A stretch of 64,000 nucleotides of DNA from Giardia intestinalis (lineage: Eukaryota), in assembly GCA_000002435.2 (NCBI GenBank), contig CM018790.1. The stretch is one strand, 5' to 3'. Shown here piece after piece: positions 24,541 through 54,816 of the stretch. A program made the translations under genes and the position numbers. Position 1 is the stretch's first letter, and the number at the start of each line of letters is the position of its first letter. The notes under the pieces were generated by a model, which searched no databases, was not told where the DNA came from, and saw only the letters and a list, made by a program, of their open reading frames with translations.

Positions 24541-26724
24541 CTACGCCTTCCCCCTGCAGATGAACCACCAGCAGAGGAACCCTACGAGACCAGCCACAAC
24601 GACGATGACAGCCACGGAGATCCCCGCGATAGCGCCCGCGCTGAGACCGCTCTTGTTGGTGTTCTGTATGAGGTAGCAGAGGACGGAGCCAGTACTAGAC
24701 GATGGAGGAGCGCAGTTTAGGCAACCCTTAATACCAGTGACCCCATTGCTATCACTTTCGCAGGATGTGCACGCACCTTCTCCTGATGCGGTCTTGTAGT
24801 ATCCTGTAGCACACGCCTTACATGTTGTAGCTGCTCCATTACATGTTTCGCAGCTGGAATCACACTTTGTGCATGCACTTGCACTCTTTACATATCCGTC
24901 CAGACACGTAGTACAGTCGGTACTGCTGGTACATTCCTTACACCCTTCAGAACAAACTGTAAGGGTACCTGAATCCAACTTGTAACCATCTGCAGCTTTT
25001 TGACACGTACCACCATTTGGTGCACTAATGCAAACCGTCTTACCGGGATACTTGACTGTTTCATAGCACCCTCCGTTCATCTTAAAGTAGTTATCGGCAC
25101 ACGTTCCACAAACACCATTCTGAATAGGCGAGTCGTTGCACGTAGGTGTGGCGCGGCTAGCCTTTGGTGCACAGACGCCATTTTGAGGATACTCTGTCGT
25201 TGTGGCGCACTCAGAGCAGTAGCTAGCACCATCGATAGTGAGCCCACACGTTTTGCAGGCGCCGCTGCCTTGGCCCGTTGTGCAGCCTTCTCCGCACGTG
25301 CCCTTAGTACCGTCGTCCCCGTACCTAAGTGCTTTTCCAGTGGGACACTCGGTGCAGTCGCTGGCAGTGCCTGCGCTGCATGTCTTGCAGCTTTCGTGGC
25401 ACGGAGAGCATGCGTCGCCGTTTTTATAGAATCCGTCGCTGCATGCTTGGCACTGCCCTTGCCCATCGCAAGTCTTGCAGTTAGCCGCAGTGCACTCTTT
25501 ACAGATTTTCTTTGCTCCTTCGGTAGCTCCATAGTAGTTTCCAATCTTAGCGCAGCTGTCTATGCACTGGCTTGTCGGCGTGAGATATGTGCTACTATCA
25601 CAGTCTGTGCAGACCTCGTTCTCCTTTCCTTCGTTGCTGCACGCCTTGCATCCGGGGGTCTTGCAGTTGCTTACCGCCTCGCACGTAGTTTTGTCGGCAC
25701 TAGGCTTGTATCCATTCGTGCAAGCGATGCACGTAATAGTGGGCGCTATCCTTCCTTGGTCTGTCGGAGTACACGCCGCGCACTTATCGACGCCCCCATT
25801 CGCAGCGTCACCGCATAAAACACACCTGTTTCCGCTCTGGGAATTTTCTACCGGAAAAGAGTCGGGTGAGCATGCGCTTTGCTCTACACATGTCGTTGTG
25901 CCATCAGCGGCCGTTTTGAGATAGTTATTGCCACCGCACTTCGTGCAAGCAGGCTTGGCTTGATCGGGACTTGGCGGCGTGCACTTTTCGCAACTCGCCA
26001 CCCCAGTGGTTACATCTCCGCATGCAAAGCATCTCTTGCCATTGTCAGAGTCCTCCTTCGAAAACTCAGTGTCAGGCGTGCAGCCCTCCCCACAAGTACC
26101 AGTCGTTGCAAGGTACTTATCCTGGCCGCACCTGGTGCACTTGGCGTCTCCGCCGGCAGCGTCTGTCAGCGCCGCCCCGTCGCATCTCTCGCAGTGCTGC
26201 ACCCCCCTGTACGTTTTGCCGCTGTCGGTGAACCCGGTCGTGTCCGAGCACGATACCACAGAGTCCTTGGTATTCGCCCTCAGCGGGTTGAGGAAGTACC
26301 CCGGGGCCGCCTCGGTGCACTTTCCCTCAGAGGCTTGCGTGCACATGCTCTGTCCTGGTGCAGTGTCCTTTGAATAACAGCCGTCCTTGTACATGAAGGA
26401 GGCGCCTCCGCACTGCGTGCACTTCCCCTGGCCCTTTGCCGGGCAGAGCGTTTTGCTTTGCCCCTCAGCGTTGACGTCTGCACACTGGCCGTTCACGGGG
26501 GCGTAGTTTGCTCCGTTGCACTCGGAGCAGTATTGTTCTTGGCCGATGGTGACGCCACACGTTTTACAGCTCCCATCGCTGCCTGATCCGTCTGCCTGAC
26601 ACGCAGCCCGTGCCAGCTGAAGGATGACGATCGCGAGCAAAAATCTGCCGAACATTGGGCCGCCGACCTGCTGGGTGGCGCCGGCCTTCCCCGGGAGAGG
26701 CGGGGTCGTCTGATGTGCCGACAT
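24541..26724 (-). CDS. Variant-specific surface protein (VSP), full length
   Basis: 727 aa, rich in CXXC motifs. It ends with a TM helix and ...FICRGKA. AGTAAAC lies 13 nt after the stop. The signal peptide MFGRFLLAIVILQLARA begins at the second Met (alternative start 26655). A 23-codon in-frame extension (MSAHQTTPPLPGKAGATQQVGGP) is conserved with the other VSP. Confidence 0.9.
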   Translation of the reverse strand: MSAHQTTPPLPGKAGATQQVGGPMFGRFLLAIVILQLARAACQADGSGSDGSCKTCGVTIGQEQYCSECNGANYAPVNGQCADVNAEGQSKTLCPAKGQGKCTQCGGASFMYKDGCYSKDTAPGQSMCTQASEGKCTEAAPGYFLNPLRANTKDSVVSCSDTTGFTDSGKTYRGVQHCERCDGAALTDAAGGDAKCTRCGQDKYLATTGTCGEGCTPDTEFSKEDSDNGKRCFACGDVTTGVASCEKCTPPSPDQAKPACTKCGGNNYLKTAADGTTTCVEQSACSPDSFPVENSQSGNRCVLCGDAANGGVDKCAACTPTDQGRIAPTITCIACTNGYKPSADKTTCEAVSNCKTPGCKACSNEGKENEVCTDCDSSTYLTPTSQCIDSCAKIGNYYGATEGAKKICKECTAANCKTCDGQGQCQACSDGFYKNGDACSPCHESCKTCSAGTASDCTECPTGKALRYGDDGTKGTCGEGCTTGQGSGACKTCGLTIDGASYCSECATTTEYPQNGVCAPKASRATPTCNDSPIQNGVCGTCADNYFKMNGGCYETVKYPGKTVCISAPNGGTCQKAADGYKLDSGTLTVCSEGCKECTSSTDCTTCLDGYVKSASACTKCDSSCETCNGAATTCKACATGYYKTASGEGACTSCESDSNGVTGIKGCLNCAPPSSSTGSVLCYLIQNTNKSGLSAGAIAGISVAVIVVVAGLVGFLCWWFICRGKA

Positions 26725-26870
26725 GCACGACTAGCGGCTAATAACCTACTGAGGCAATCGGTGGACACATCCACTATCAGTTATAAGTAGCTATGAATAC
26801 ATCATTTGGCATTGGTCTCCACGTTTATAATAGCAGCACATGTCTAACTAGATCACTGCCTTAATCTGGT

Positions 26871-29800
26871 TTACTTAAGTACCTCAGAAGCAAACTGGCA
26901 AATATCAACCCACACAACTCTCAACATTGTATAGAGTACCCCCATGGCTTCAATCTGCCGCATATAATTGCGAACCTCTGCTATACGTGATTGATTGACT
27001 GTTCCATTAGAGCTTTTGATGCCGTGAATCTCTTGCAGTTCACAACAGACCCACGAAATCCACGATTCAATGGCCTCGGGTGCTAATAACGTTGCGATAC
27101 TCGATGATAGACGGCTTTCCACAACATTTCCCATGGCCAGTTGTGTCAAAGAAAAGGATGCCCAGGCTTGACCTAGATGAGGATATTTTAGTATCAAGTT
27201 CTTCAGTGCAGAGGAAGCAAGAATAAGAGCACGAGAAACGTCTTTCTGCGTCCTCTCTGGCGTTAGCGTACGGTTAGTAATTGTAGCACTAGCCAATGCC
27301 GCTATAGTGTTATCGAAATCCACAGCCGTTGTGTCCTGTATCTTCTGTTGCATCATACTTGCAATGTTGGCCGACGAAGCCACCACTCCATGGCCAGGAC
27401 TGTTATTCCTGCTATCACTAGTCAGCAATTCAGTGTCTCCCCCCGCATCCACGACTATTTCCTTCGCTCGTGCCTTCAGCTCCTTCAGCAAGTCAACAGA
27501 CATCTTAACGGGCTCCTTACTGTCCTTGAGCTGCTGCACTTTAATTAGTTTATTTGCATTGTACTGCTCTCTCATGTACATCATTTGGGTAGACGTGGCA
27601 TCAGATGTAATATCGTAGGGCTGTCTTGAATAAGTCGGCTTTGGAAGAGGTAACAATGATGTGAAGTCATTTAAGGTGTCCATGTTTCTATCATCTTCAT
27701 CGACGGCATTAGAACGAGTGTCCTGATATTTGGGTACTTCAGTAAACATAAGGTCTACCTTTTGCTTGACTTCTTCTGAAGACGCCTCCTTTGACTTTAC
27801 AGAGGTTGAGGCAAAAATAGAGCGTATAACGCCAACTATATTTATGGACGAAAAGAGAATGAGCGCAATGGTGTACAGAAATTCTACAGGCAAGTACGAA
27901 TCATAGGTGCTTGTGCTGCCACGGAAGAAATCGTCTCGTCCTCCCTGCTTTGACCTACTCGCTAGCTGATACGCCTGAATAGCCATTCTGGAGGTTTCAT
28001 TCAAAAGGGCGCGAGTGGAGTCATTCGATAACATGGTACTGAGGCCATATTGACTGGATTGCTCAAGTTGACCAGATGCTTGGATAGTTGTCGGATCATA
28101 AGCTTTCATAAGAAGCGAAATGTTCATATTGGTAATTATGCGGGCGCGTAGATACAAAAAGGCCGGACACGCCTTAACTTTCGGGATGAGAGCGGGACCT
28201 AGGCTTCCTCGAAGCACAGAGTCCGCAAACTCTAATGCAGGTGCATATCTCCGCTCATATAACATGTTCCTCATGGAGATAATTATCCCACGAAGCTGTT
28301 GATGCAAGAAGAAGGGCGAGTCTGATGCGGCAGTCCCAGAAGTTATCATTATCTTCAAGATGTGATCTGCCAAAGAAGTCGCATACGTGGAAATAACCGT
28401 TTCTCCTCTGAGACTGAGCCATTCTGCAAGGGACAGAAAAGCACACAGGCGCATAATATTTTTGGAGGCGGGGTCGTTAGGATTAGCAAATTTATCGTTT
28501 TCAGGTAATGTGGAGTCTAGGACATACTCCATAAACTCAGCATTAGACTTGAAGCGATAAGGAAGAGGAGCAAACATCCCACCATCAAGGGTGTCGCTCT
28601 TAAGATATTCCTGGATGGCAGAGTAATGATTTATGGAGACCTGCTTGGCATAGTTGCTCTTTTGCATCTTTAGTGACTTGTAATTCTTCAGGTCTTCAAA
28701 GGAAAGACGTGAGAGCGACGGTGAGGGGTGGACATCGTTTGTCCCATGGATGTTCATAGAGGTAGTGTTGCAAGATAGGTTGTTACCTGACGGACTCACA
28801 CCGGCAACAAGGTCTGCGTCCACAGAGATGGTGGTATCGCAGGACTTCCCGCTATCGACGTCGCTTCCAATGCTGTCATCAGCAAAATCTTTCATGGTTT
28901 TTCTGCGCTTCCCATGTTCCTGGAAATAAACGTCATCCTTGTATTGTTCTTGTTTGAGTTCAATATACCTACGAAAGCTCGTCTGCAATGCACGGGCGAT
29001 GTGTCGGGCATCCATCAGCTTCATGCTCCATAGAACAAAGATATAGGCACCCATCGCCCAAAATGGAGGGTATGCATACACTCCATCTCCGGGCACATTG
29101 TAGAACGGCATGGCGTCAAGCTCGGCCTGCAGTTCCGGAGATATAGCCTTGGCCTTCTTTTCACTCGCAAGACCAGATAACCCGGACATGACGCTTGTAG
29201 TAGCACTCATGCCAGCTGCGTTTCGACGCAGTGTTGATCCAACCTCTGATACGTCATCTCCAATCCGTTTGGGTTGGCGGTCATATAAACTAATAGCCAC
29301 GCTTCCAGCAATGCTTCCAGCGATACTCTCATTGCTGGGAAATGCAGTTATCTTTGTAGCATCTTTGGGCAGCTTGACAACATGTGTATTTGCCTCTCCC
29401 TCCAGCAGGTCATTAAACTGCTTAGAGTAGTAGTTGCGGATGGGTGTGATCTTCAAGATCTCCATCATAGAATCCACATCCTCCTTGTTGTACTTCCTCT
29501 CACGTAACTTGGTAGCAACGGTGGACTGGGTGTCATTCTTGGTCCAGACGTGGACCTCCTCCACGTTGTAGCCTGCAACCTTACTGATTAGGTACTTCAT
29601 GAAATTATCGTAGGCAAGAAGGGCGCTGACAAGGAGTTGCTCTGAGTAATCGTAACCGAGAGGTACGACAATCTTGCCCCGCTTCCCCTGTCTCTTCTGC
29701 GACGTATCTGATGTTCCTATGGCGCTTTTAAAGAGTGTTTTGGTGATAGCAAGGGCCAAAAGACACGAGTCTGTACCGAGAAGCTGCATACTCTGCTCGC

Positions 29801-32800
29801 TGTCCAGACACGCACAGATCACTCCCACTGGGCCACGCATGTAGGTGGCTAAGCGCTCAAAGTCTGTAGACGTCCTCACAACATGTGGTGACGACAATCG
29901 CGTGCCAGCAATGAGCATTGTACTCACCATGATCTGAAAATTGGAGCGGCTCACAAGCTTGGAAATGCGAGCTATGTTGGTAGTATCAAATATATCAATT
30001 TTTCTGTCATTGGAAAGAAGCTGACCCTGCCTTGCAAGCGTTGCAGATGCAAGCTTGAAGCTTAGTTCCAAGCAGTCATCCATTCCTAAGATTGATAAGA
30101 ATTTAGCCTTAAACAAATAATTATTGATGTCTTTAAGGGATACATGCTGCGGAATCATCAAACTATTCATCCCGTCTAAGTATGACGTATCTTGGCTGAT
30201 GTTGCTCTGATTCGTTATCGCAGTACTGAGGCGCCCTCTTTCCTCTTCATCAACGTCTGGGAAAAGCACACTAATACTATCTCCTACGACGCGGACCCTG
30301 TCGTTGGTCAAGACGCTAGAATCTTGACAGTTGGTTTCAGACTTTCTTTGCGGCTGGGTTAATGAAAGACTGATCTTACGGTCAGTATTTTGAAGACGTG
30401 GTCCGCTGCTGATAAGTGCCGATAACCCGTCGTCATCATCCTTGTCGATTCGACGCTGAATTTTGTACCCTTTGACCCTAGGCTTCTCCAGATCCCTATC
30501 TGCATCCAGAGGCTCGCCGTCAACAATATTAATTAGGAGATACTCCATCATGTCGTCGATATTATTGAAACCTTTGTGCGCAAGAGACTCCAGCTGCAGA
30601 AGAATTCGTCTGCTGAGGATTTCTACGAAGCCCTCGTTTTGAATTAACAGTTTAAAGTTCTTAATGGAGTAGTCATTTGCCACCTCCGACTTTTCCTCTG
30701 TCAGAAGAGCTGAGATTTGCGGTAGAATAGCAGGAGTCACCAGGGCATTCTGCGTCAGGATCTGGCCCTGGAGACCGCGTAAAGCCAACTGACGTCCGGC
30801 CTGAATGATGGCCTTCATCTTTGCATTTTCCTCCGGGATGTCAGAATAGGATATCGTGGTCCGGCCTTGCTGCGTGGCCTCTGTCTTCAAAGGCTTGCAG
30901 ACCTGTTTGTAGCGAGCCGTAATGTCATCTCTCCAGCTGTCCACAAGCCTTCTGATATTAACCATCGTTTTCTGCCGCTCCTTCGCCATAGAATATGTAT
31001 CCATGTACGAAAGAATGTGCTGCCTGTCCCGCTTGCTCAGATTCGTCCGGCTCTGGTGTGCATCATCGCTACCTTCTAGCCCAGCATCACTGCTGTTTAG
31101 ACGAGTTGATGGGTCGGTCTCATGCCTAGCATGCCTGTGCCTAACAAGCCTGAGAGAAGCAGGCCAGATAGAACCACCGCTTTCAGAAACAGCACCCGAG
31201 GTCAGGACCCGTGCTGATTGAGTAATCTGAACATTCGCTAAAAGAGGGTATTGGAACCCAATGGAAGCTCCAATTAAAGGAAAACTAAGAGTCGATTGAA
31301 GAGAGTCGTTAAACACCATCGGCATCGTAATTATTTTCTGTAAATCGGCCAAAGTGTCCAAGACAACAGTCATGTTGAGCATATCGTTGCAGTACTTGTT
31401 TATCAAATTAACAATATACAAAGATTCGAGTGAGGGGCTCTGAACTGGTACAGGAGAGAGAGGCGCACTCGAAAGCGTCTCCAATAAACTATAGACCCCG
31501 CACAGAATGTTCCCAAATATATAATTTGGATTTCCATTGCTATACCGAGCAGCTTTCCCGATAAATTCGGCTAATAGTGGGTTCTGTACCGGCTGCTTAG
31601 CATTCTTGTCCGAAGCGCCTGCTGCCTTCATACTGGTATTTGCAGATGTAGCACCCATAACGGTTGATCCCTGGTTCTGCCTGTTAGCCTTTCCACGTAG
31701 TTGTATGGGGGCTTCCATACCTGCAGAAGTGGGCCTGGATCGACCCACAGAAGCAGCATCGGATCCGTCTTCGCTACAAACACCGTTATTATATAGAGTT
31801 TCAAACTCATCCTCTTCTATGCCAGCCTGGCCGGCAACACCAGTCCAGCTAGACACAACCGGTGGGAAGAAGGCGGAAAAGATTGCCTCATCATATGGCA
31901 GTAATGGGTAGACACTATCGCAGGATGCATACTGGCAGACAGGGCTGAGTATGGAGCTAGCGTTGATCCGGGTATAACAGTACGCTGCAAGCGGTTCAGC
32001 AAAGGCCTGTCTTGTCTGCTGAAGTTGTGGGCGGGGACAGGGGAACCTATTGTACGGCTGGTCTGGGGCTTGTGTGTAATAAATAATTGACCTATTGAAG
32101 CCGTAGGATAGATTTGTCTGGGCACAGAAAGCCGTCATCCCTTGAGCATTACCTGCAAAGATAGAGTGTGTATTTGCTATTGGGACTAGGGGAGCAGTTG
32201 GCGGCTTCTTTTCAGATAAAATTGCCTTACTGGCAAGGAGATACTTTGCCTGCAAGGAGTAAGAAGGACGCAAGAGGATTTGGAGCATAAATTCGTTGGA
32301 TTTTTTTCCAGAATGGCTCTGCTTTAGTAGAGAACGTGTCCTGTTGTTCATGCAGATCAAGACAGTTCTACTCATTAGAAGATTTCGAGCTCCTAACAAG
32401 AAGGGTTCGAAGATCTCTGCCACAAACCGGACGGATGCTCCCTGAGAACGAGTACTACTACCTGCTGCATCTCTACTGGAGCTTGCACCCTTACTTTGAG
32501 GCCGAGGGGCTCTAGTATCGTCTATACTTATGGTGCTTGAATGAGAAGCCACATATTCCTCTATTCTTCTTGAGATGGATGCTGAGTAATTGTTCAGAAT
32601 TTCCTCCACATAGAGCGCATACTCTACCAAGCTTTCGTGCTGCCTCATAGCCGTGTGATCTGGGAAGGTCAACTGTGCAGCCGTGTCAGTTGAGCCAGCG
32701 ACATCGCGAACTAAAAGGTACTCTTGCAGGTCCATAGTGAGGCGATAAGCAAGGCCCTTTCCCCGATCCCTGAGTACACCGTGTGAGGACGCTGTGTGTC

Positions 32801-33908: not shown

Positions 33909-33998
33909 TTTTTAAAGAGATTCTAGATTTCTGGGAATGCTTGCCAGCCGCCCTTGTCTGCTTGATATGATCGTAATCTAACGCTACTACATGATGGC

Positions 33999-45600: not shown

Positions 45601-46164
45601 ATGATTCGCGACGGTCTTCTGGCGATGGACTCCAAGGGGTACTTGACAGTTCACTCCAGTCTGGCTAAGACGAAAAGTGCGAAGGAGCAGCTTAAAGACC
45701 TTACCAGGCAGGACCCCATTGCATCCTTTTTTAACAGAGAGCGCTGTGACTACTTCTGCTTCTCCTACGCCAATGAAGGGCCACATTACAAGCACCTCGA
45801 TTGCTACACATGGTATCACTCGTTAGATTCTGTAAGGTGCTTGCCGAGCAAGCAGGAGGTGTCTGCTGCTGACGGACAATCTGACGCGATCACAGATGCG
45901 GCGCCAACAGTCATTGTGCCACAGTCGGCTCCTCAGGCCATGGGTAAGGACATCAACACTGTCATCGCTCTTGCCAACGCGTTCATTGTTCGATTGGTCA
46001 AGACATGCGGGCCACTTAGCAGGCGGGAAATTATCGATCGCTGTGTCGAAGAGGTCAGCGGGACGTCCAACGAAACAGCCAAGTCTTCGCTGGATAATTT
46101 AATTGACATGGACTACCTCAGCTACGTGGACGGTGACTCGTCGCTCCTTGCGTATGTGATGTAG
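42619..46164 (+). CDS. Large hypothetical protein (1181 aa)
   Basis: ATG in the A-rich context gtaaaaaaagaATG. Uninterrupted 3.5-kb ORF. Convergent with the TTLL gene, with 20 bp between stops. Confidence 0.7.
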   Translation: MEHAQSNPTASAPLLDVSYEFTHADVLSCLEDTNSPVPEFSTKTQYTSFRDALAGIFSNFSIEIYTEVSNHFGFEGVSDYDLTSVANSECHLSVIQPQAPSPSFLKDATQSGNFPGVVELLKMSLRVYVDEIEGVIKGACMISDSDPLLISQSFAVLLAVWNDLRTKLANTSTLFAGYGLPLNTVRDTFIDALTTDLINEERAKKIISLIINGISTYLLGSEQPHILSLRAMISFVGAVHSQYIDELVDKLIPSVVAILRGKLNGLLTNKQGSQKASLELLHSIQARIKPALSRGLLHNLSLSTSDCSYDSEEETDSEGGDDLQEDDTCKAQPGVPSDGSANVTNTEISVPIGSTDNADDANDSLLIRHHAPVMNSDICVAILSVISSLNEFTEVLAYLLQVTYVELPTKVTTAMRCMQRNSGLFMPSQECLNILEVQSNLSHLRTSLLSAVLNDLEPLLTSPILSYTVIFNYFNGGKGLIYHLYVLAYEAEERCGAAEDSPLSLIDNFITRSLDLSLKYAYRNPGTYSLCIDKFLANPFVVDQSYLKGNPPTFPVAQVLAVNLIYLNSVSEDIQETLRYLLSNSLLVTLRKMQSNLSSGKVYELENPSLKAHVYTAAYVDTLCCNSNSSVAFVSAEAILVLVDSIIRFICLLELKLKELDELFCNPEPHEQIREYLSLLSCPSVPGQPLEALLRQIFCPSSSLRLPQLLLCALLAYCGHSCNSLLASKNSEPQGPVTTVAAAPIGTSNGITFRSSTKIAWEKMLIHKAPPRKQPLFHNLLDIAEMMGRFSWPILSSCMGFLRKNDGSLAAIVSRMINLSLNRFLCFSTSHALLILEQESYLEFRSSIPSDDISDICHKYLNNITSASSVAHAAKNMTMSDTNYILINAAFQSFLDETFIHVSAARKTPMLTTDIQKMLMAFVSGHVRVISPLLKSTLEASDVPPLHVLSLSGSIIICTREVADTLDFVLQRTRVFPADLATVLGEVFSSVYPQMIRDGLLAMDSKGYLTVHSSLAKTKSAKEQLKDLTRQDPIASFFNRERCDYFCFSYANEGPHYKHLDCYTWYHSLDSVRCLPSKQEVSAADGQSDAITDAAPTVIVPQSAPQAMGKDINTVIALANAFIVRLVKTCGPLSRREIIDRCVEEVSGTSNETAKSSLDNLIDMDYLSYVDGDSSLLAYVM

Positions 46165-46184
46165 ATCGTGACATCGGTACAAGC

Positions 46185-49100
46185 TCATTGCGCCTCTCCC
46201 TTATCTTGCGGAGGATCGCGCACAATGACTCCTGGAATGGATATCTCCTTCCCAAATGCTGTGATATCTGCAGAGTACTGACTAAGCTTCTGCTTTTCAC
46301 AATAGATGAGTTTCCAGTCTTCGAGAGCAGATGCGCCATTGCCAGAGCCGAAGACAGCACTTGCGTTGCTGATCTTTGGCATGACAATCTTCTTCTTTGT
46401 CTTTATCTTTGTTCCAAGACAACTATCAACAATTATATTAACAAGCCCACGAGACATCTTATCGATAAGCTTTGTTACCACCTCTGTACTGTGTTCTAGG
46501 GTTGGCGATGCATTAATTTCTACCAGCCATACCTGCAGGGCGCTGTCAATGATGAAGTCATACCCAAGCAGTTCAAAGTTGTTATCCGCTGAGGTGAGCT
46601 CGAATCGTGCCGCCTGCACGGTGGTTATTATTATTCGCGCCATGTCGTAGAGAATGCGGTCAGCTATTGTGTTGAACACGGCCTTGTCAGTGTACTGCGA
46701 GTGCTTGTAATCCTCCGCTTTGATGCGCGATTGGTTGCCGTAGAGGTCAGGTCCGTAGAGCTTGGCGTGCTCGCTGGTCTCATACTTCTGCTTATATGGA
46801 CGTGATTTAGCTTTTCTTTTGTCCGTCTCCACAGTCTCTGCATCCTCATCGTTATTTTTATTTTTATTTTCTGTTACTATTAATTTGGATTGGGATTTAG
46901 ATTGGTATCTGGATTTAGATTGATTTTGCGCACGCAAAATATCTACCATTTCGGTACCCTCTGTGCTTGTTGGTGGTGCTCTTATCTTAAAGTCTTCTGT
47001 TTGATGGTAACAGAAATACTGAGGATCCCTTTCTAGGAGGAGGTCCAACCATGGCTTGTCACCAATCATTTTATCCAGATAGTCGGAAAAACTCGTCCAG
47101 TCCCACATGTTTCCCTTACCGAGGAACTCGTCGTCCTTACCAAACTGCTCCGAGCACTTTTGAACGCTGTTGTTGCTGAGGTGGATATACGGGTTCTTCA
47201 AATCGTGTTCATCTAAGCTGTACTTTGACGAGCAAAACCTTAAGTACGGGCTCGTCCACTGAAATATTATCAGCGGGTTGATAGAGCTGACGAACACCCA
47301 CTGACGGATGTCAAACTTGTACCCGCCCAGTAGAAGGGGTGTTTCCAAGTACCGCTGTATTATGTAACGATCAGAGCTGTTGACAGCCGCTTCGTCTGGA
47401 AGCTCAAACTCACTGTCTGTTCCGCCGTGCTCGTCCAGGACTAAGAGCTTGAGGATGTCGTTAGAGCAGAAGATACCGCGACCCCTTGACTTTGCCCCAG
47501 GCTTTCCGATAAAGATATTCTGCATGGAGCTTCTGATCGACACTTGAGGTGCGTGCTGCAGATACACTCCAAGCGCGCGCACCATGTGGTGGTATTCCTG
47601 GGCAGTTGCCGCATTAGCATGTATTTCGTCAGTAGCTGCAGAATATGGATGGCTGAACTGTTCCTTTCTCCGCGAACTGAAGGAATCTGGAGCAGGAGCA
47701 GCGATGGATTCTGAGCCATTAGCAACAGGACCTGCAGTGGTAGCGGGAAACAGTGTTCCCGGTCTGGGTCTACCTTTGGGCCCAGACCCTGCTTCTCCAT
47801 CGGAGGAAAACAAGCTCTGAGGAGATATGGCGCCATAGAAGTCCGGAAGCTTGTACTGACGCGGCAGCCTGGGGAGTATAATGCCCATTTCATACTGCGT
47901 TACGGGAGGCACAACAAAGCGCGTCTTCTTATCCAACTCTAAGTCATGGTGAAGAATGGTAGACGTCAGATACAAGAGGTGTCTATAGGAGATCTGTAGC
48001 TGGTGTATACTGTACTTAAAGCAACTAGAAGGGGTTAGTTCTGTTCGCTCGTTTGTTTCGGCAGTGGAGCTCTCCCAGTCGATCATGGAATCACAGATCT
48101 TGGGGTCGCGCACCCAGTTGAAGCAAATCTTTACTACCTCAGTATTCAGAAAGTCCTCGAGGAAGTCTAGCGTCTCATCATTGGCGCTCATTAATTGCAA
48201 TTGCGCTTGGCTATTGGCGTCGGATGCATTGACTACCCGATACGATTGTGGGAAGAACCTGGTTATGTCTATATCAAAGTTGTTAGGGGACAGGGTCTTG
48301 GTCAGGCCGCTCTTCGTGGTTAGCACTTGTGAGTTAGTGAAATGGTTTGTGTACTGCCACGGATGCAACCTTGTGCGATCAATATCTGCTACTTTAATGG
48401 CAAACTTGATATTAAAGTCTGTTGGGGTGTCCTTGTCGGGGTTAACTACCCAGCCTTTGTCTAGAAAGTATTTTTTGAAGTCCACGTATCCTCCCTTGAA
48501 GATAACGATGTTCCGGGGGTGACTGGGGCCTGACGAATCGCTCGCCAGGCGGACCGTAATGTATGATAGCCTCTTTTCAAACTGCTTGAGAGTGGAGATG
48601 ACAAGGGATCCATACCGGGCCATAATAGCATTATCAGTGCTAGGCACCATAAACATGCTGAAAGAATGCTGTGCCCGTACTGTTTTGTCGGCCTTGCTCC
48701 CTGTTTCTTGTGAATTTGAGGACTTCGATGGTTTTGAGGACTTCAGTGGGTTTTTAAGCAATGGAAGATCGGGAATCTCGGCAGTGCTGCTTGTTAAGGA
48801 GGTTGGAGGGTCTTCATCAGACGTATCGTCGTATCCGTCCTCCAAGGAAATAGAAACCTTCTGAGTACAACGAATTCGCTTAACAATCGATGCATTTATC
48901 AGTCTAGCTTTTATTAGGGGATCAGTGGCCTTTGGAGCTGGATCCAGAGCCATAAAGTTTCTGGTGTAGTGTACAACAGAGCTCAATCCATAGACATACT
49001 CTCCAAAGAAAGGAACGGTACTTTCTAAGACAGGAAGAAGCTTCTGAAGCTTTGGAGAAGGTGCTTGTTTAAGCTCCTGCCCTACAGGCTTCACAATCAT

Positions 49101-49412
49101 AGGTGATCGAGAGATTGACGGTATTTCCCTGTTGGCCGCAGCCTGAGTCATGTGTGCTGCTCCATCAGCTCTTGGCCTGGAAGGCTGCAAGCGCACACTG
49201 CTCACTATCATGGAACCTGGTAGGGACGGCGAGGCCCGCAATTTGGTGCCAGACGTTGCTCGCCGCTTCTTTTTCTGCTTGTGTGGCTTGCCATGTGTTC
49301 TTGCTGTCGTATTACTGCGTCCAGGAGGAGAAGACGACCTACTACTCATCAAAACCGGAAATAATGTGATAAAGGCAGGAAGAAATTTATCACAAACGCC
49401 ATCAGCTCCCAT
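46185..49412 (-). CDS. Tubulin tyrosine ligase-like (TTLL) family protein, second copy in the window
   Basis: 1075 aa. TTL-domain motifs are present: YIIQRYLETPLLLGGYKFDIRQWVFVSSINPLIIFQWTSPYLRFCSSKYSL...NFELLGYDFIIDSALQVWLVEINASPTLEHSTEVVTKLIDKM. ATG confirmed at 49410..49412. Confidence 0.85.
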   Translation of the reverse strand: MGADGVCDKFLPAFITLFPVLMSSRSSSPPGRSNTTARTHGKPHKQKKKRRATSGTKLRASPSLPGSMIVSSVRLQPSRPRADGAAHMTQAAANREIPSISRSPMIVKPVGQELKQAPSPKLQKLLPVLESTVPFFGEYVYGLSSVVHYTRNFMALDPAPKATDPLIKARLINASIVKRIRCTQKVSISLEDGYDDTSDEDPPTSLTSSTAEIPDLPLLKNPLKSSKPSKSSNSQETGSKADKTVRAQHSFSMFMVPSTDNAIMARYGSLVISTLKQFEKRLSYITVRLASDSSGPSHPRNIVIFKGGYVDFKKYFLDKGWVVNPDKDTPTDFNIKFAIKVADIDRTRLHPWQYTNHFTNSQVLTTKSGLTKTLSPNNFDIDITRFFPQSYRVVNASDANSQAQLQLMSANDETLDFLEDFLNTEVVKICFNWVRDPKICDSMIDWESSTAETNERTELTPSSCFKYSIHQLQISYRHLLYLTSTILHHDLELDKKTRFVVPPVTQYEMGIILPRLPRQYKLPDFYGAISPQSLFSSDGEAGSGPKGRPRPGTLFPATTAGPVANGSESIAAPAPDSFSSRRKEQFSHPYSAATDEIHANAATAQEYHHMVRALGVYLQHAPQVSIRSSMQNIFIGKPGAKSRGRGIFCSNDILKLLVLDEHGGTDSEFELPDEAAVNSSDRYIIQRYLETPLLLGGYKFDIRQWVFVSSINPLIIFQWTSPYLRFCSSKYSLDEHDLKNPYIHLSNNSVQKCSEQFGKDDEFLGKGNMWDWTSFSDYLDKMIGDKPWLDLLLERDPQYFCYHQTEDFKIRAPPTSTEGTEMVDILRAQNQSKSRYQSKSQSKLIVTENKNKNNDEDAETVETDKRKAKSRPYKQKYETSEHAKLYGPDLYGNQSRIKAEDYKHSQYTDKAVFNTIADRILYDMARIIITTVQAARFELTSADNNFELLGYDFIIDSALQVWLVEINASPTLEHSTEVVTKLIDKMSRGLVNIIVDSCLGTKIKTKKKIVMPKISNASAVFGSGNGASALEDWKLIYCEKQKLSQYSADITAFGKEISIPGVIVRDPPQDKGEAQ

Positions 49413-49548
49413 GGTGGGATCGGCGTATGCACGCTAGTGGGACCATTATGGACCACTATGCACATAGATAACGATTCCAGTTAACGACTCGCATCCCTTT
49501 CTCTTTCCAATAACAATTCTCCGGCATCTCAAAGGTTAAAAAGGCACT

Positions 49549-51171
49549 ATGGTGGTTTCCCCCCATCATCTGAAGCGCCAGCGAATACCGCGCTTTCAAC
49601 GTATAGAGCCTGTTTCAAACCGCATGGTTGTGGACTCTCTCTCCAAAACGCGCAGGTCTCGATCATACCAACGCGGCTCTATTGCGATGCCTCACCTTTA
49701 CAATAACAGGGTGTATGCTCCTCCCCGGCCAAAAGTGGAGATGATGGGGGTAGAGCCCACAACCTGTGAGATAGCTCTCATATTCATCAACAGCATATTC
49801 GCTGCATTTTCCTCCATGTATGTTAATGACTCCATAGCGCCTTTGAGTGTTTACTTGACAAAGTACTACGAAAACATAAATGATGAGCTTATTGGCTGGC
49901 TCTCATCGGTGATATTCTGCCCGTCTCTCTTCATGGCCCTTGTCATTGCGCCCTTCATAAACCGCTATGGGCCCATGAATGTCGGCATTTTTTGCCATAT
50001 CTGGTTCATAGTAACAACTATCATAATGCCCTTCATTCAACACAACTATGTGGCTCTGCTGATCATGCGTATTGTCTTTGGTTTGCTATCCGAGCCTTCA
50101 TGGCTCGTACAATCTGCGCTCATTGCAAAGTATATGCCTTCTAGATTGGAATCTCTGGGCTTTGGGGTCTGTATGAGCATCTCAACCTCAGCGAATCTAT
50201 TGGGATTTGGGTTTATCCCGCCCCTATTTTCAAAGATTGACATCCACAAAATTCAGCATCCCATAAATAGACAAGATCCATTATTTCTCGAGTTTGAAAA
50301 TAAAATCAAATTGGCCTACTGGCTCAATGTTGTCGTGTGTGTAATCTCCTTCGGTATTTATCTTGCATGCGGACTACCTCTGTTGCGCATTGACAAAGCC
50401 ATCAAAAAGATCAACCAAGAGCGCGAAGACCAGTCGCTGGCGTTTAGACCGGAGCTTCCTGTCTATATGGATAAAAAGATTTTGCCCACACTCCCCAGCA
50501 AGAGCAATCGCATACCCTTCCTATACAAATTGAAGCATGCATTTATGCTTCCTATGGACTACTGGCCGCCAAATTTAGCTTTTTCACTTCTCCTGGGGTG
50601 TGCATACGGTTGCCAGACGCTGATACTGAGTTATCTCTCTGCAAACAAGAATGGCATTTCAGAGGAAACCGTGGAATATTTTGGCATAGTCCGATCAGTC
50701 ATGAGCGTTGTCGGAGGGCCGGTTAGCGGTTTGCTGGTTGGAGCTATCGGACAGAGGCCACTTCTAACCCTCCTAGGGTATATCATGGCCATTGCAGGCT
50801 TTGTACTAACTATCTTCCTCCCTGACTGGTACAATATGATTCCAATGGCAATGATAGGGTTTGTGGACGGTGGGAGTGCAGCGTTCACCAAGAGTTTGCT
50901 CAGCAGCGTGGTGCCGTATGACCAGCTCAGCATCGCATACGCCATCGACGAGAGCCTGCTCAATCTCTGGCAGTTTGCTCTCCCGCCGATTGCCGGCCGG
51001 ATAAGTGACGTGATGAAGGAGACAGACAGCGCTGGAAAGCCAACCGAGCGGTCCTTTGGTACCCCGCTGTTTTATTCAATTGCAACAGGAATAGGCCTAA
51101 TACCCGCTGTGACTCTCGTCATCAGAGACCGGACCCGCTTTCGTGGGAAGCTGAGCCTCAGACCCGAGTAA
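49549..51171 (+). CDS. Major facilitator superfamily-like transporter (12 predicted TM)
   Basis: 540 aa with about 12 hydrophobic helices in a 6+6 arrangement around a central loop. The basic N-terminal 64 aa precede the first TM, so the alternative start at MMGVEPTT is possible. Confidence 0.6.
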   Translation: MVVSPHHLKRQRIPRFQRIEPVSNRMVVDSLSKTRRSRSYQRGSIAMPHLYNNRVYAPPRPKVEMMGVEPTTCEIALIFINSIFAAFSSMYVNDSIAPLSVYLTKYYENINDELIGWLSSVIFCPSLFMALVIAPFINRYGPMNVGIFCHIWFIVTTIIMPFIQHNYVALLIMRIVFGLLSEPSWLVQSALIAKYMPSRLESLGFGVCMSISTSANLLGFGFIPPLFSKIDIHKIQHPINRQDPLFLEFENKIKLAYWLNVVVCVISFGIYLACGLPLLRIDKAIKKINQEREDQSLAFRPELPVYMDKKILPTLPSKSNRIPFLYKLKHAFMLPMDYWPPNLAFSLLLGCAYGCQTLILSYLSANKNGISEETVEYFGIVRSVMSVVGGPVSGLLVGAIGQRPLLTLLGYIMAIAGFVLTIFLPDWYNMIPMAMIGFVDGGSAAFTKSLLSSVVPYDQLSIAYAIDESLLNLWQFALPPIAGRISDVMKETDSAGKPTERSFGTPLFYSIATGIGLIPAVTLVIRDRTRFRGKLSLRPE

Positions 51172-51563
51172 ATGGCTGGAGCCACATAAAGACTTCATGA
51201 TATCCGGAGGAAAGTTCCGGTTTTAGCAGTAGCCAGACGTGAGTTATGGATGCGCATTGACGATGCAGGACGCTAAACCCCGTTGATTACTTCTAAACAA
51301 TACACCCTACGAAAGCTCGTGCATGCGATGATGTACTCTATCTCGCAGCGATAACTCATCGATATGGCCCAGGTGCTTTCCACTGTTGCGCAAATACTTA
51401 TATGTACACTGCCAAACTGAGGGGCAAAGATGGCTTAACAGAACATAGTAGCAATTGATGGCTGCAGAAGGCTGCTTGTAGCGTCACCAGTGTAGGTTGA
51501 TACAGGTCCATAAAGACACTGTCCCGGAGAATGCTTCAGCAATTTTACAGTGAGACAGGCATT

Positions 51564-52471
51564 TCACCGAATGTGCTGTTTACTAGGGTGTAGAATATCT
51601 ACAATAATAGCTTCAGTGGTGCTAGTGAGGCGGTTCTCAGGATGATCGACTGCGGGGTTGGTACTGTGCAGAGTGCAGCCCAGTGACTTGTGTCCTTCAT
51701 TCAACACCGTTCCAGTACTACGTTCGTTAGGAGAGGTGATGGGTGCCTGGAGTAGTCTGACGAGCTCCCTGGCTGTTGATCTTTGAGTGTGGTCTAGAAC
51801 AAGCACTTTCTTGAGGATACTCCTTATGAGGTCATCTTCAACTGCACTCAGGCTGAGCCTTCACCCGTCGACGAAGACATTCCTCAGGTGCTGCTCCCAG
51901 GAGATCAGGCATTTGAAAGCGGAGAGCTCGTAGGCAATAGCACCGAAGACCCGACGTCGGACGCAGGACCGGTCTCGCCCCTGAGGTGGGTCTTGGGGGC
52001 CATGTATGCTTGGTTCCCAAAATGGCACTCCCATTGTGCAGGACATCCTTCAGAGCCCGAAGTCCGCAAGAGCTGAGCCTGCCATCTCTGCTGGCATCGA
52101 CCTTGTCGGGGTCGTGAAGGTAGGCGAGGATGATGGCAATCTGCTCCATGATGGAGAGCATTGCATCGATAGGGTTGTCGGTTCTTGCACAATCGGTAAT
52201 CGCATCTTGAGGCACCGATCCCAGCGGTCCATGACGATGAAGACAGATCAGGCGTCTCTGAGCACCTGGTAGTGCCTAATGGCATCTAGGTGTGAGCGTC
52301 TGGAAATGGTGGCCAGCACGACCCAGTGGCCTCCGTGAGCTTCCCACTCTGAGCCTTGGATAACTACCTATCACATGGACAGTACCAAAACTGCCCACAT
52401 CAAGCACCCCTCCTCGCATCGATGCAGCTCGTCGGCGGGCACAGGATATCGAGTGCACCGTCCCCGGCCAT
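51564..52471 (-). pseudogene. Degraded paralog of the NEK-like kinase gene 9964..10841, lying immediately 3' of the VSP
   Basis: Minus-strand nucleotide and peptide similarity to the intact kinase extends from the ATG (MAGDGALDILCPP ~ MHAASSGSATIAFSAP) through ...HYQVLRDA, DCARTDNPIDAMLSIMEQIAIILAYLHDP, ADFGL/KDVLHNGSAILG and TARELVRLLQAPITSP. It is split over 3 frames with in-frame stops, and the catalytic-loop segment is deleted. Confidence 0.65.
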
Positions 52472-52603
52472 GACGGTATCAACGGCACTGTGCAGAGCAC
52501 GCTCGGGGGCAGGGGAGCGGCCACCCCTGCTCCCGGTTGCAGGCTGGCTGGCGAAGTATACGAGGCGCACCCGCTTGTCAGGCAGCTGCACCACTAGTGA
52601 CGC

Positions 52604-52610
52604 ATTTACT
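52604..52610 (-). promoter_or_regulatory. AGTRAAY polyadenylation signal (AGTAAAT) of VSP 52618..54816
   Basis: Minus-strand sequence after the CRGKA stop: tgacttaggtAGTAAATgcg. Confidence 0.55.
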
Positions 52611-52617
52611 ACCTAAG

Positions 52618-54816
52618 TCACGCCTTCCCCCTGCAGAGGAACCACCAGCAGAGGAAGCCCACGAGGCCCCCCACGACAGCGACCACAGCGACGGAGATCC
52701 CCGCGATGGCCCCCGTGGAGAGCCCGCTCCTGTTGGTGTTCTGTATGAGGTAGCAGAGGACAGGCCCTTTATTGTTGGTTGGGGGAGCGCAGTTGGCGCA
52801 GTTGGCGACGCCGGTGATGGATCCGCCGTCGCTCTTGTCGCATGCTATGCACTTTTCTTTGGACAGGTAGTACCCTGCAGCGCACACCGTGCACTTGGTG
52901 GCGTCGTCCGCATTGCACTCGGAGCACCCAGTGGCGCAGGGAACGCACTTCTTAGTGTTACCGCCAGTCTTAGCATATCCAGCCTTGCACGTGTCGCACT
53001 GGTCCTGGCTGGTGCACGTCTTACATCCGGCCGAGCAAGTGATGAGCGCGCCGTTATTCAGTTTGTACCCGTCGGCCGGAGTCTGACAGGTATCGCCGGC
53101 CGGTGCTGCCTCCTCACAGACGTTCTTTCCAGGGAACTTAGTCGTCTCGTAGCAGCCCCCGTTCATACGAAGAAATCCGTTGGTGCATGAATTACACATA
53201 CCCTTGGCAACGCTTCCAGCCTTACAAGTGGCTGCAGCACGGACAGTTGTTGAGCTACAGACGCCATTTTGAGGATACTCTGTCGCTGTGGCGCACTCAG
53301 AGCAGTAGCTAGCACCATCGATAGTGAGCCCACACGTCTTGCATGCTCCTGCTCCTGTGCCCGTTGCGCATCCAGCTCCGCACGTGCCCTTAGTACCGTC
53401 GTCCCCGTACCTGAGTGCTTTTCCGGTGGGACACTCGGTGCAGTCGCTGGCAGTGCCTGCGCTGCATGTCTTGCAGCTTTCGTGGCACGGAGAGCATGCG
53501 TCGCCGTTTTTATAGAATCCGTCGCTGCATGCTTGGCACTGCCCTTGCCCATCGCAAGTCTTGCAGTTAGCCGCAGTGCACTCTTTACAGATTTTCTTTG
53601 CTCCTTCGGTAGCTCCATAGTAGTTTCCAATCTTAGCGCAGCTGTCTATGCACTGGCTTGTCGGCGTGAGATATGTGCTACTATCACAGTCTGTGCAGAC
53701 CTCGTTCTCCTTTCCTTCGTTGCTGCACGCCTTGCATCCGGGGGTCTTGCAGTTGCTTACCGCCTCGCACGTAGTTTTGTCGGCACTAGGCTTGTATCCA
53801 TCCGTGCAGGCGGAGCATGTAACGAGGGCAGCCCCTGATCGGCCACTAACCAGAGCACACGTGGCGCAATTGGCAATTCCGTCGGTGCTGTCATTACAAG
53901 GGAGGCATTTATTTCCTGCACTGCTGTCATCCTTGGGGAAGAAGCCGTCTTTGCATTGGTCTTTTTGTACGCACGACGTGCCTTCGCTTGTGGTTTTCAG
54001 GTAGTTGTTATCGGTGCATTTTGTACACTTGATCTTCTTAGATTGCTCATCGTAGCTGCAGGTGTCGCAATTGGCAACGCCACCATTGAGGTTATCGCTG
54101 CAAGAAACACATTTGTTGCCATTCTCAGAATCATCAACTGCAACGAACTTATTAGTGCTACCAGAATCGCACTGGGCTTTATCCACACACGTATTATCCT
54201 TGAGGTACTTATCCTGGCCGCACCTGGTGCACTTGGCGTCTCCGCCGGCAGCGTCTGTCAGCGCCGCCCCGTCGCATCTCTCGCAGTACTGCACCCCCCT
54301 GTACGTTTTGCCGCTGTCGGTGAACCCGGTCGTGTCCGAGCACGATACCACAGAGTCCTTGGTATTCGCCCTCAGCGGGTTGAGGAAGTACCCCGGGGCC
54401 GCCTCGGTGCATACGCCATCTCCGTCGGAACTTAAGCACAGGCTGTGTCCAGGAAGGCCTTCTCCGCTGGAATAACAGCCGTCCTTGTACATGAATGAGT
54501 TGCCTCCGCACGTCGTACAAGCCCCGCTGGCGTGTGCTTTGCAAAGAGCTTTTTTATCCGCCTGCGTCTCCACGTCCTCACAAGCACCGTTCACGGGGGC
54601 GTAGTTTGCTCCGTTGCACTCGGAGCAGTATTGTTCTTGGCCGATGGTGACGCCACACGTTTTACACTTTCCATCGTCAGCTTCTTGGGTGCAGGCTGTC
54701 CGTGCCAGCTGAAGGATGACGATCGCGAGCAAAAATCTGCCGAACATTGGGCCGCCGACCTGCTGGGCGGCGCCGGCCTTCCCTGGGAGAGGCGGGGTCG
54801 TCTGATGTGCCGACAT
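52618..54816 (-). CDS. Variant-specific surface protein (VSP), full length; mosaic paralog of 24541..26724
   Basis: 732 aa, rich in CXXC motifs, ending in a TM helix and ...FLCRGKA. AGTAAAT follows the stop (52604..52610). The first 40 codons are identical to the other VSP, and the ~140-aa block YKPSADKTTCEAVSNCKTPGCKACSNEGKENEVCTDC...GKALRYGDDGTKGTCG is also identical. The alternative signal-peptide start is at 54747. Confidence 0.9.
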   Translation of the reverse strand: MSAHQTTPPLPGKAGAAQQVGGPMFGRFLLAIVILQLARTACTQEADDGKCKTCGVTIGQEQYCSECNGANYAPVNGACEDVETQADKKALCKAHASGACTTCGGNSFMYKDGCYSSGEGLPGHSLCLSSDGDGVCTEAAPGYFLNPLRANTKDSVVSCSDTTGFTDSGKTYRGVQYCERCDGAALTDAAGGDAKCTRCGQDKYLKDNTCVDKAQCDSGSTNKFVAVDDSENGNKCVSCSDNLNGGVANCDTCSYDEQSKKIKCTKCTDNNYLKTTSEGTSCVQKDQCKDGFFPKDDSSAGNKCLPCNDSTDGIANCATCALVSGRSGAALVTCSACTDGYKPSADKTTCEAVSNCKTPGCKACSNEGKENEVCTDCDSSTYLTPTSQCIDSCAKIGNYYGATEGAKKICKECTAANCKTCDGQGQCQACSDGFYKNGDACSPCHESCKTCSAGTASDCTECPTGKALRYGDDGTKGTCGAGCATGTGAGACKTCGLTIDGASYCSECATATEYPQNGVCSSTTVRAAATCKAGSVAKGMCNSCTNGFLRMNGGCYETTKFPGKNVCEEAAPAGDTCQTPADGYKLNNGALITCSAGCKTCTSQDQCDTCKAGYAKTGGNTKKCVPCATGCSECNADDATKCTVCAAGYYLSKEKCIACDKSDGGSITGVANCANCAPPTNNKGPVLCYLIQNTNRSGLSTGAIAGISVAVVAVVGGLVGFLCWWFLCRGKA

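What the first reader, a model, noticed from the sequence alone, without database searches (positions are those of the whole stretch)
24541..54816. Two same-strand VSP genes 28 kb apart are mosaics of identical and divergent blocks, a gene-conversion signature
VSP 24541..26724 and VSP 52618..54816 share nucleotide-level identical stretches:
- the first ~40 codons;
- the block VCTEAAPGYFLNPLRANTKDSVVSCSDTTGFTDSGKTYRGVQ.CERCDGAALTDAAGGDAKCTRCGQDKYL;
- a ~140-aa block, about 25240..25700 against about 53325..53790.
These are interleaved with segments of much lower identity. The TM and CRGKA tails differ only at a few residues. Block-wise identity rather than uniform divergence suggests recombination or gene conversion between antigenic-variation genes.
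Basis: seen in the sequence. Interest (0 to 1): 0.55.

Follow-up and report, generated by a model that had tools for sequence, protein, structure and literature searches.

The report
Mosaic Giardia VSP genes vsp417-6 and vsp417-4
Two surface-antigen (VSP) genes of Giardia lamblia WB, 28 kb apart, really are patchworks of near-identical and very different blocks made by recombination among related VSP genes; this is real but already described for this gene family.

Summary
The window is Giardia lamblia WB. The two ORFs are the known genes vsp417-6 (GL50803_113439; 24541..26724, minus strand) and vsp417-4 (GL50803_113450; 52618..54816, minus strand).

- **Block structure.** Five blocks are 87-99% identical at nucleotide level, including a perfect 376-nt run. 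In 10,000 permutations the longest run was 52 nt. The blocks alternate with segments of 49-61% identity.
- **Not protein constraint.** Four-fold degenerate sites are 92-97% identical in the four near-identical blocks (61% in the tail) and 24-54% identical in the three larger variable segments.
- **Recombination is supported, but as a network.** Each variable block has a near-identical copy in another WB paralogue on another chromosome: TSA417, XP_001705590, XP_001704113, XP_001706652 or VSP9B10-B. Only one 210-nt block is shared by these two genes alone within WB.
- **Change at conserved loci.** In sub-assemblage A2 (isolate DH) both loci keep 96-98% identical flanks. The vsp417-4 locus there carries a vsp417-6-type body. 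The vsp417-6 locus carries a 247-aa gene with a vsp417-4-type 5' part, seen in three assemblies.
- **Not an assembly artefact.** Both proteins occur in two WB annotation releases and in older GenBank entries.

Recombination among WB vsp genes was published in 2010, so the finding is ordinary for the field.

The parts
24541..26724 (-). VSP-A = vsp417-6 (GL50803_113439, XP_001708183). The long ORF is 727 aa. The current annotation starts at M24 (CDS 24541..26655, 704 aa).
   Evidence: Pfam VSP. 100% identical to XP_001708183.1. Length, Cys count and CXXC count match vsp45 '417-6' in Adam 2010 Additional file 1.
52618..54816 (-). VSP-B = vsp417-4 (GL50803_113450, XP_001708164). The long ORF is 732 aa. 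The current annotation starts at M24 (CDS 52618..54747, 709 aa).
   Evidence: Pfam VSP. Identical to P0003 = KAE8302112 = AAD04339. Matches vsp44 '417-4'.
26608..26729 (-). Shared 5' block, copy in A (copy in B: 54700..54821). It covers about 75 nt of leader or promoter with the CAATGTT initiator context, plus the signal peptide. 115 of 117 nt are identical.
26488..26568 (-). Shared block 2, copy in A (copy in B: 54586..54666). 81 nt, 98.8% identical.
26110..26319 (-). Shared block 3, copy in A (copy in B: 54202..54411). 210 nt, 99% identical. It is the only block shared by A and B alone among the WB paralogues compared.
25171..25716 (-). Central shared block, copy in A. 546 nt, 96.9% identical, with a perfect 376-nt core at 25340..25715. 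It is also shared with TSA417 (90-100% aa).
53257..53802 (-). Central shared block, copy in B (perfect core 53426..53801).
54202..54411 (-). Shared block 3, copy in B.
25717..26109 (-). A variable block 3. It has no close copy in the other WB paralogues compared. It is about 96% identical at nt level to the VSP at the B locus of isolate DH.
24685..25170 (-). A variable block 4, TSA417-type (95-100% aa to TSA417). It is 98% identical at nt level to the DH B-locus gene.
53803..54201 (-). B variable block 3, of TSA417 / XP_001705590 type (90-100% aa).
52621..53256 (-). B variable block 4 plus tail. The first part is XP_001704113-type. The remainder is XP_001706652-type (95-100% aa).
24544..24684 (-). 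A tail (TM segment plus CRGKA). It is 86.5% identical at nt level to the B tail and 100% identical at aa level to the VSP9B10-B tail.

Best explanation
The two genes are vsp417-6 and vsp417-4, members of the TSA417-like (vsp417) subfamily of Giardia variant-specific surface protein genes. Their block structure is the product of repeated ectopic homologous recombination among dispersed paralogues. This means short-patch gene conversion and/or double crossovers, with tracts of roughly 80-550 nt or more.

Exchange probably starts in stretches that stay similar across the family: the leader and signal peptide, the cysteine framework and the TM/CRGKA tail. A patch is copied or swapped while the chromosomal flanks stay put. 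This gives new combinations of extracellular segments and homogenised patches between particular pairs.

**Shown here:**
- the mosaic itself;
- its statistical non-randomness;
- homogenisation of synonymous sites;
- different nearest paralogues for different blocks;
- replacement of gene bodies between conserved flanks in A1 versus A2 isolates.

**Inferred:** the molecular pathway, the direction and date of each event, and the benefit (a more diverse antigen repertoire).

Expression switching in Giardia is held to be epigenetic or RNAi-based. This recombination therefore remodels the repertoire over evolutionary time and is not the switch itself.
For: - **Non-random blocks.** Perfect 376-nt run against a permutation maximum of 52; runs z = -16. 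4-fold sites are 92-97% identical in the four near-identical blocks (61% in the tail) and 24-54% in the three larger variable segments.
- **Unrelated flanks**. Identity begins about 5 nt upstream of the long-ORF ATG.
- **Block-wise nearest relatives within WB**, aa numbered from M24:
  - A = [81-120 XP_001705590-type] [121-180 shared with B only] [181-320 unique] [321-480 B + TSA417] [481-640 TSA417, 95-100%] [661-704 VSP9B10-B tail, 100%].
  - B = [1-40 TSA417] [41-80 XP_001705590] [81-120 TSA417, 100%] [121-180 A] [181-320 TSA417 / XP_001705590, 90-100%] [321-460 A + TSA417] [481-540 XP_001704113, 85-100%] [541-709 XP_001706652, 95-100%].
  - The paralogues lie on contigs of 1.54, 1.97, 2.76 and 4.02 Mb.
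- **DH (A2), B locus.** Flanks are 97.5-98.5% identical to WB. The gene body is WB-A-type for more than 350 consecutive informative sites (p < 0.0002).
- **DH, A locus.** Flanks are 96-98% identical. The gene is 247 aa and its nt 126-440 are WB-B-type (83 consecutive sites). The same allele occurs in two independent ENA assemblies.
- **A third locus.** DH P0005 against WB XP_001704113 is 97-100% identical except aa 91-210, which in DH are vsp417-6-type.
- **Central core.** A = B at 376 of 376 sites. Both differ from the DH copy at 9 sites. At 2 of those sites the P15 copy agrees with DH, which fits a WB-lineage change present in both A and B.
- **Literature.** Adam et al. 2010 (PMC2996952) found recombination among WB vsp genes with GENECONV and DualBrothers. 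PMC12669663 reports VSPs enriched among gene-conversion genes.
Against: - Nucleotide sequences of the other WB paralogues could not be fetched. Within-WB donor assignments therefore rest on protein identity.
- No syntenic outgroup was obtained, so direction and non-reciprocity are not established. The A1/A2 difference looks partly reciprocal.
- No reads were available for read-level confirmation.
- A1 isolates are reported to conserve their VSP genes (PMC11169602), so events are rare on short time scales.
Confidence: 0.88

Rival explanations
1. A single tandem-like duplication was followed by in-place divergence. Diversifying selection sped up change in the exposed segments and purifying selection froze the shared blocks.
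For: VSPs are antigens under immune pressure. The cysteine framework is conserved across the family.
Against: - Synonymous 4-fold sites are 92-97% identical in the four near-identical blocks (61% in the tail) and near saturation (24-54%) in the three larger variable segments. Selection on the protein does not predict this.
- The variable blocks have indels and have 93-100% identical copies in other paralogues on other chromosomes.
- The 25.9 kb between the ORFs, and the flanks, are not duplicated.
Confidence: 0.03
2. Assembly artefact: one or both copies are chimeras created by collapsing or mis-joining repeated VSP sequence.
For: VSP repeats are known to break assemblies (Adam 2010). About 100 short-read contigs end at a nearby 666-nt repeat.
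Against: - The same two proteins occur in the first WB RefSeq annotation release (XP_...1) and in the GenBank annotation of a 1.54-Mb contig (KAE83021xx).
- The same sequences also carry the older GenBank accessions AAF02907 and AAD04339 (AF065606 and AF065168).
- The shared blocks are at most 546 nt and lie inside unique flanks.
- A2 assemblies built with different assemblers give reproducible, though different, alleles at the same loci.
Confidence: 0.01
3. The exchange between the two loci was a reciprocal double crossover, a cassette swap between direct repeats on one chromosome, and not non-reciprocal gene conversion.
For: In DH the B locus carries an A-type body. The A locus carries a B-type 5' variable region. 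This looks reciprocal.
Against: - The DH A-locus gene is truncated and continues with TSA417-type sequence, not a clean B copy.
- The DH B-locus gene keeps a B-type patch at nt 337-550.
- Most blocks have a third-party paralogue as their closest copy. Several independent events are therefore needed in any case.
Confidence: 0.15
4. The identical blocks are kept identical by a nucleic-acid-level function, for example small-RNA or antisense targets used in VSP silencing, and not by recent recombination.
For: VSP expression control is reported to involve RNAi (mentioned in PMC12669663). The blocks include the leader and 5' end.
Against: - The same blocks differ by 2-3% between WB and DH and are absent or replaced in close paralogues, so they are not under absolute constraint.
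- A perfect 376-nt identity is far longer than any small-RNA target.
- This idea does not explain why the variable blocks match other paralogues.
Confidence: 0.03

Closest known systems
The vsp417 (TSA417-like) subfamily of Giardia VSP genes. Its papers (Ey & Darby 1998 and 2002; Gillin 1990) are cited in Adam 2010. Members are named in Adam 2010 Additional file 1.
   Same: The two genes are members: vsp45 = '417-6' (AF065606, GL50803_113439, 727 aa) and vsp44 = '417-4' (AF065168, GL50803_113450, 732 aa), both on chromosome 2. Large blocks are 95-100% identical to TSA417.
   Different: Nothing in kind. The Ey & Darby papers are not in the held library, so I could not check how far they describe this block map.
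Recombination among WB vsp genes (Adam et al. 2010, BMC Genomics 11:424). [quoted passage not shown]
   Same: The same genome and gene family. They also inferred recombination, using GENECONV/Sawyer and DualBrothers. They noted near-identical 5' regions followed by divergence.
   Different: Their tests were limited to the 3'-terminal 234-657 bp of small clades. Here the whole genes are mapped block by block, donors are assigned, and loci are compared between A1 and A2.
Gene conversion tracts in assemblage A populations (Nat Commun 2025, PMC12669663).
   Same: VSPs are significantly enriched among genes in conversion tracts. The authors suggest that conserved regions in VSPs provide the homology.
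   Different: That study looks at exchange between AI and AII lineages at population scale. It is not a paralogue-by-paralogue mosaic map of one locus pair.
Mosaic VSG formation in Trypanosoma brucei, and ectopic recombination among Plasmodium falciparum var genes. The var comparison is from my own knowledge. The VSG papers were only listed and not read.
   Same: Segmental conversion or ectopic recombination among dispersed antigen paralogues creates new chimeric antigen genes.
   Different: In T. brucei, conversion into an expression site is itself a switching mechanism. In Giardia, switching is held to be epigenetic or RNAi-based, and the loci here are chromosome-internal, single genes among housekeeping genes.

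Membership tests
Giardia variant-specific surface protein (VSP, PF03302) | Match to the Pfam VSP profile above the curated cut-off | tested here: met
   711 and 648 bits against a cut-off of 31.4
Giardia variant-specific surface protein (VSP, PF03302) | Cysteine-rich ectodomain with many CXXC motifs, one C-terminal TM segment and an invariant CRGKA end | tested here: met
   84 Cys (11.5-11.6%) and 29 CXXC motifs in each; both end ...CWWF(I/L)CRGKA
Giardia variant-specific surface protein (VSP, PF03302) | Initiator-type start context (CAATGTT) and an AGTRAAY polyadenylation signal just after the stop codon | tested here: met
   CCAATGTTCGG at M24 in both genes, as listed in Adam's table. AGTAAA lies 12-15 nt after the stop. 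Function was not tested.
vsp417 (TSA417-like) subfamily | Homology to TSA417 along the whole gene, and listing as a 417-n locus | tested here: met
   75% identity to the TSA417 cluster representative overall, and 95-100% in long blocks. Named 417-6 and 417-4 in Adam 2010 Additional file 1.
Gene conversion / ectopic recombination signature | Identical tracts longer than chance allows, given the overall divergence | tested here: met
   376 nt against a permutation maximum of 52; runs z = -16
Gene conversion / ectopic recombination signature | Synonymous sites homogenised inside tracts and diverged outside them | tested here: met
   4-fold site identity is 92-97% in the four near-identical blocks (61% in the tail) and 24-54% in the three larger variable segments
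Gene conversion / ectopic recombination signature | Different segments have different closest relatives (phylogenetic incongruence) | tested here: met
   Block-wise best hits and painting. Triplet tests give p < 0.0002.
Gene conversion / ectopic recombination signature | Flanks stay orthologous while the internal sequence is replaced | tested here: met
   WB against DH at both loci. The A2 allele at the A locus is reproduced in ENA assemblies.
Gene conversion / ectopic recombination signature | Non-reciprocity and direction (donor unchanged, acceptor changed) | tested here: inconclusive
   No syntenic outgroup was found: the P15 loci of P0004 and P0028 are elsewhere. The A1/A2 pattern is partly reciprocal-looking.
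Gene conversion / ectopic recombination signature | Read-level support for both copies | not testable with these tools
   No reads were available. Indirect support comes from two WB annotation releases and older GenBank accessions carrying the same protein sequences.

The most novel reading that the evidence does not exclude
Since the A1/A2 split (about 2-3% divergence), the two loci 28 kb apart may have exchanged their gene bodies in a partly reciprocal cassette swap. At least one further locus (XP_001704113) received a vsp417-6-type patch. The perfectly identical blocks would then act as recurrent recombination anchors around exchangeable antigen cassettes. If so, this locus pair could serve as a calibrated natural clock for the rate and tract length of VSP repertoire remodelling.
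Probability: 0.25. Interest if true: 0.45.

Novelty: already known. Interest (0 to 1): 0.25.

Why it matters
The result confirms, gene by gene, that Giardia diversifies its surface-antigen repertoire by shuffling segments among dispersed paralogues. It also shows that this has changed the content of otherwise conserved loci between the human-infective sub-assemblages A1 and A2.

That is relevant to VSP-based vaccines and typing, because 'the same' locus encodes different antigens in A1 and A2. It also bears on the debate about recombination in Giardia. It does not change the current picture: both genes are named members of the vsp417 subfamily, and recombination or gene conversion among VSPs has been published.

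Tried and rejected
- **WB paralogue DNA.** I tried to fetch it for nucleotide-level donor mapping. The look-up of encoding contigs has no record for P0003, the 704-aa form of A, P0090 or P0045. Within-WB painting is therefore at protein level.
- **The A locus in other isolates through the identical Mo25 neighbour.** This returned only ~10.5-kb Logan contigs, all ending at the 666-nt repeat before the VSP.
- **Outgroup polarity from P15.** P0004 (TSA417-like) and P0028 lie at non-syntenic loci, so direction could not be inferred.
- **DH P0005 locus.** It is not syntenic with the window. It corresponds to WB XP_001704113.
- **Literature.** The DH/GS genome paper (GBE 2013) and the Ey & Darby vsp417 papers are not held.
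- **Rejected readings.** Selection-only explanations and assembly chimerism; see the rival explanations.


Full report
**What is there.** The window is from Giardia lamblia (syn. intestinalis, duodenalis) isolate WB.
- The ORF at 24541..26724 (minus strand, 727 aa) is 100% identical to XP_001708183.1 'VSP with INR'.
- The ORF at 52618..54816 (minus strand, 732 aa) is XP_001708164.
- Both match Pfam VSP PF03302 at 711 and 648 bits.
- Each has 84 cysteines, 29 CXXC motifs, one TM segment and the CRGKA end.
- Length, Cys count and CXXC count match two rows of Additional file 1 of Adam et al. 2010: vsp45 = '417-6' (AF065606, GL50803_113439) and vsp44 = '417-4' (AF065168, GL50803_113450), both on chromosome 2.
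- They are therefore named members of the TSA417-like vsp417 subfamily.
- The current annotation starts both at M24 (MFGRFLL..., 704 and 709 aa). The first 23 codons of the long ORFs are then probably leader. The start context CCAATGTT is the initiator motif listed for both genes.
- The two genes are 28,092 nt apart start to start. About eleven unrelated genes at 48% GC lie between them; the VSPs are 56-57% GC.

A codon-based alignment gives 73% nt and 68% aa identity overall, but the identity is strongly blocked.

| Block (alignment codons) | Length | nt identity | 4-fold site identity |
|---|---|---|---|
| 1-39 | 117 nt | 98.3% | 96% |
| 53-79 | 81 nt | 98.8% | 92% |
| 138-207 | 210 nt | 99.0% | 97% |
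| 345-526 | 546 nt | 96.9% | 92% |
| Tail | 141 nt | 86.5% | 61% |
| Variable segments | - | 49-61%, with indels | 54%, 33% and 24% in the three larger ones |

- The 345-526 block has a perfect 376-nt core at 25340..25715 against 53426..53801.
- The longest exact run (376 nt) compares with a mean of 24 and a maximum of 52 in 10,000 permutations. The runs test gives z = -16.
- Outside the genes the sequences are unrelated. Identity begins about 5 nt upstream of the long-ORF ATG, which is about 75 nt upstream of M24.
The central block is somewhat larger than stated, and one 81-nt block was missed.

**Why this is recombination and not uneven divergence.**
- Synonymous sites are homogenised inside the blocks and near saturation outside them. 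Constraint on the protein cannot explain that.
- The variable blocks did not diverge in place. Each has a near-identical counterpart in another WB paralogue (aa numbered from M24).
  - vsp417-6 (A) reads: [81-120 XP_001705590-type, 90-100%] [121-180 shared with vsp417-4 only] [181-320 no close WB copy] [321-480 vsp417-4 and TSA417] [481-640 TSA417, 95-100%] [661-704 VSP9B10-B tail, 100%].
  - vsp417-4 (B) reads: [1-40 TSA417] [41-80 XP_001705590, 95%] [81-120 TSA417, 100%] [121-180 vsp417-6] [181-320 TSA417 / XP_001705590, 90-100%] [321-460 vsp417-6 and TSA417] [481-540 XP_001704113, 85-100%] [541-709 XP_001706652, 95-100%].
- These paralogues sit on contigs of 1.54, 1.97, 2.76 and 4.02 Mb.
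- The pair is thus one part of a family-wide patchwork. Only the 210-nt block (codons 138-207) is shared by these two genes alone within WB.

**Evidence from other isolates.** In DH (sub-assemblage A2, GCA_000498715.1) one 288-kb contig carries both loci.
- **B locus.**
  - The flanks are 97.5-98.5% identical to WB.
  - The VSP between them (P0123) is WB-A-type over almost its whole body. It differs from WB-A at 14 of 393 nt in variable block 3 and 8 of 486 nt in variable block 4. It differs from WB-B at 184 and 222 of the same sites.
  - A B-type patch remains at nt 337-550.
- **A locus.**
  - The flanks are 96-98% identical to WB.
  - The gene is only 247 aa. WB 26294->24715 is replaced by about 115 nt of TSA417-type sequence.
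  - Its nt 126-440 are WB-B-type (83 consecutive informative sites).
  - The same short allele, with zero nt differences, is present in an independent ENA assembly. The same structure is present in a second one. It is therefore not a DH assembly error.
- **A third locus.** DH P0005 and WB XP_001704113 are 97-100% identical except at aa 91-210. There the DH copy is vsp417-6-type.
- **Triplet tests.** For these recombinants, tests on informative sites give p < 0.0002.
- **Central core.** WB-A and WB-B are identical at 376 of 376 sites and both differ from the DH copy at 9. At two of those nine sites the P15 copy agrees with DH. This fits a change in the WB lineage that is now present in both genes.

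**Artefact check.** Both proteins are found in the first WB RefSeq annotation release and in the GenBank annotation of a 1.54-Mb contig. The same sequences also carry the older GenBank accessions AAF02907 and AAD04339. The shared blocks are short (at most 546 nt) and lie inside unique flanks.

**Mechanism.** The best explanation is ectopic homologous recombination among dispersed vsp417-like paralogues.
- It would be resolved as short-patch gene conversion and/or double crossovers, and would start in the segments that stay similar across the family.
- The mosaic, its non-randomness, the donor-specific blocks and locus-level replacement are shown here.
- The pathway, direction, timing and selective value (new epitope combinations) are inferred.
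- I could not polarise events. The P15 relatives P0004 and P0028 lie at non-syntenic loci, and DNA of the other WB paralogues was not retrievable.
- The partly reciprocal look of the A1/A2 difference leaves a cassette swap by double crossover as a live variant.
- VSP genes are reported as conserved within A1 (PMC11169602). Such events are therefore rare on short time scales. They remodel the repertoire and do not drive switching.

**Relation to what is known.**
- Adam et al. 2010 (PMC2996952) tested WB vsp genes with GENECONV and DualBrothers. [quoted passage not shown]
- Jerlström-Hultqvist et al. 2010 (PMC3091692) linked VSP mobility to duplication and recombination.
- A 2025 population study found VSPs enriched in gene-conversion tracts (PMC12669663).
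- The genes themselves were cloned and named about 1998-2002 (references). I could not read those papers.
- The finding is therefore real, well supported and ordinary for the field. What is added here is a full-length block map with donors, plus the A1/A2 comparison at both loci.

**Verdict.**
- Observation: confirmed.
- Interpretation: supported, but broadened from a pair to a network.
- Novelty: already known.
- Interest: 0.25.

Noticed in passing
window 6331..6714 (+): A third, very small VSP gene. It is 127 aa with a signal peptide, 12 Cys, 2 CXXC motifs, a TM segment and CRGKA. It matches vsp46 / GL50803_8595 in Adam 2010. It lies in a 58-62% GC stretch (6-10 kb), and its tail resembles the tails of A and B (76-77% nt).
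   Followed up: partly
window 12076..12724 and 23536..24200: A 666-nt direct repeat, 89.5% identical. The second copy fills the space between the VSP-A stop codon and the PQ-loop gene start. A related copy lies downstream of a partial VSP in DH (L004 1028..1898). About 100 short-read (Logan) contigs carrying the Mo25 gene end at these two copies. Its nature is unknown.
   Followed up: partly
L003 13266..16405 (DH); empty site at about window 51586..51600: DH has a 3,140-bp insertion about 1.0 kb downstream of the B-locus VSP. It is 60% GC and has fragmentary ORFs, including an RVT_1 reverse-transcriptase domain. It has ~50-nt terminal inverted repeats and a 16-nt flanking direct repeat (TAAGTATTCTACACCC). 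That sequence is single-copy, with one mismatch, in WB. It looks like a polymorphic retroelement insertion.
   Followed up: partly
L015 8563..9306; L017 8528..9271; L018 about 888..1631 (the A locus in A2-type isolates): The A locus in A2-type Giardia carries a 247-aa mini-VSP. About 1.58 kb (WB 26294->24715) is missing. The junction ...GCTGACTGCGCG/AGCTGCGCTCCTCC... lies between two Cys-motif contexts. This suggests a short-homology deletion that made a small but intact VSP.
   Followed up: partly
window 8983..12118: Several ankyrin-repeat and kinase-like ORFs, apparently fragments of the Protein 21.1 / NEK type by the look of their translations, in a GC-rich region between the mini-VSP and the 666-nt repeat. 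Not analysed.
   Followed up: no
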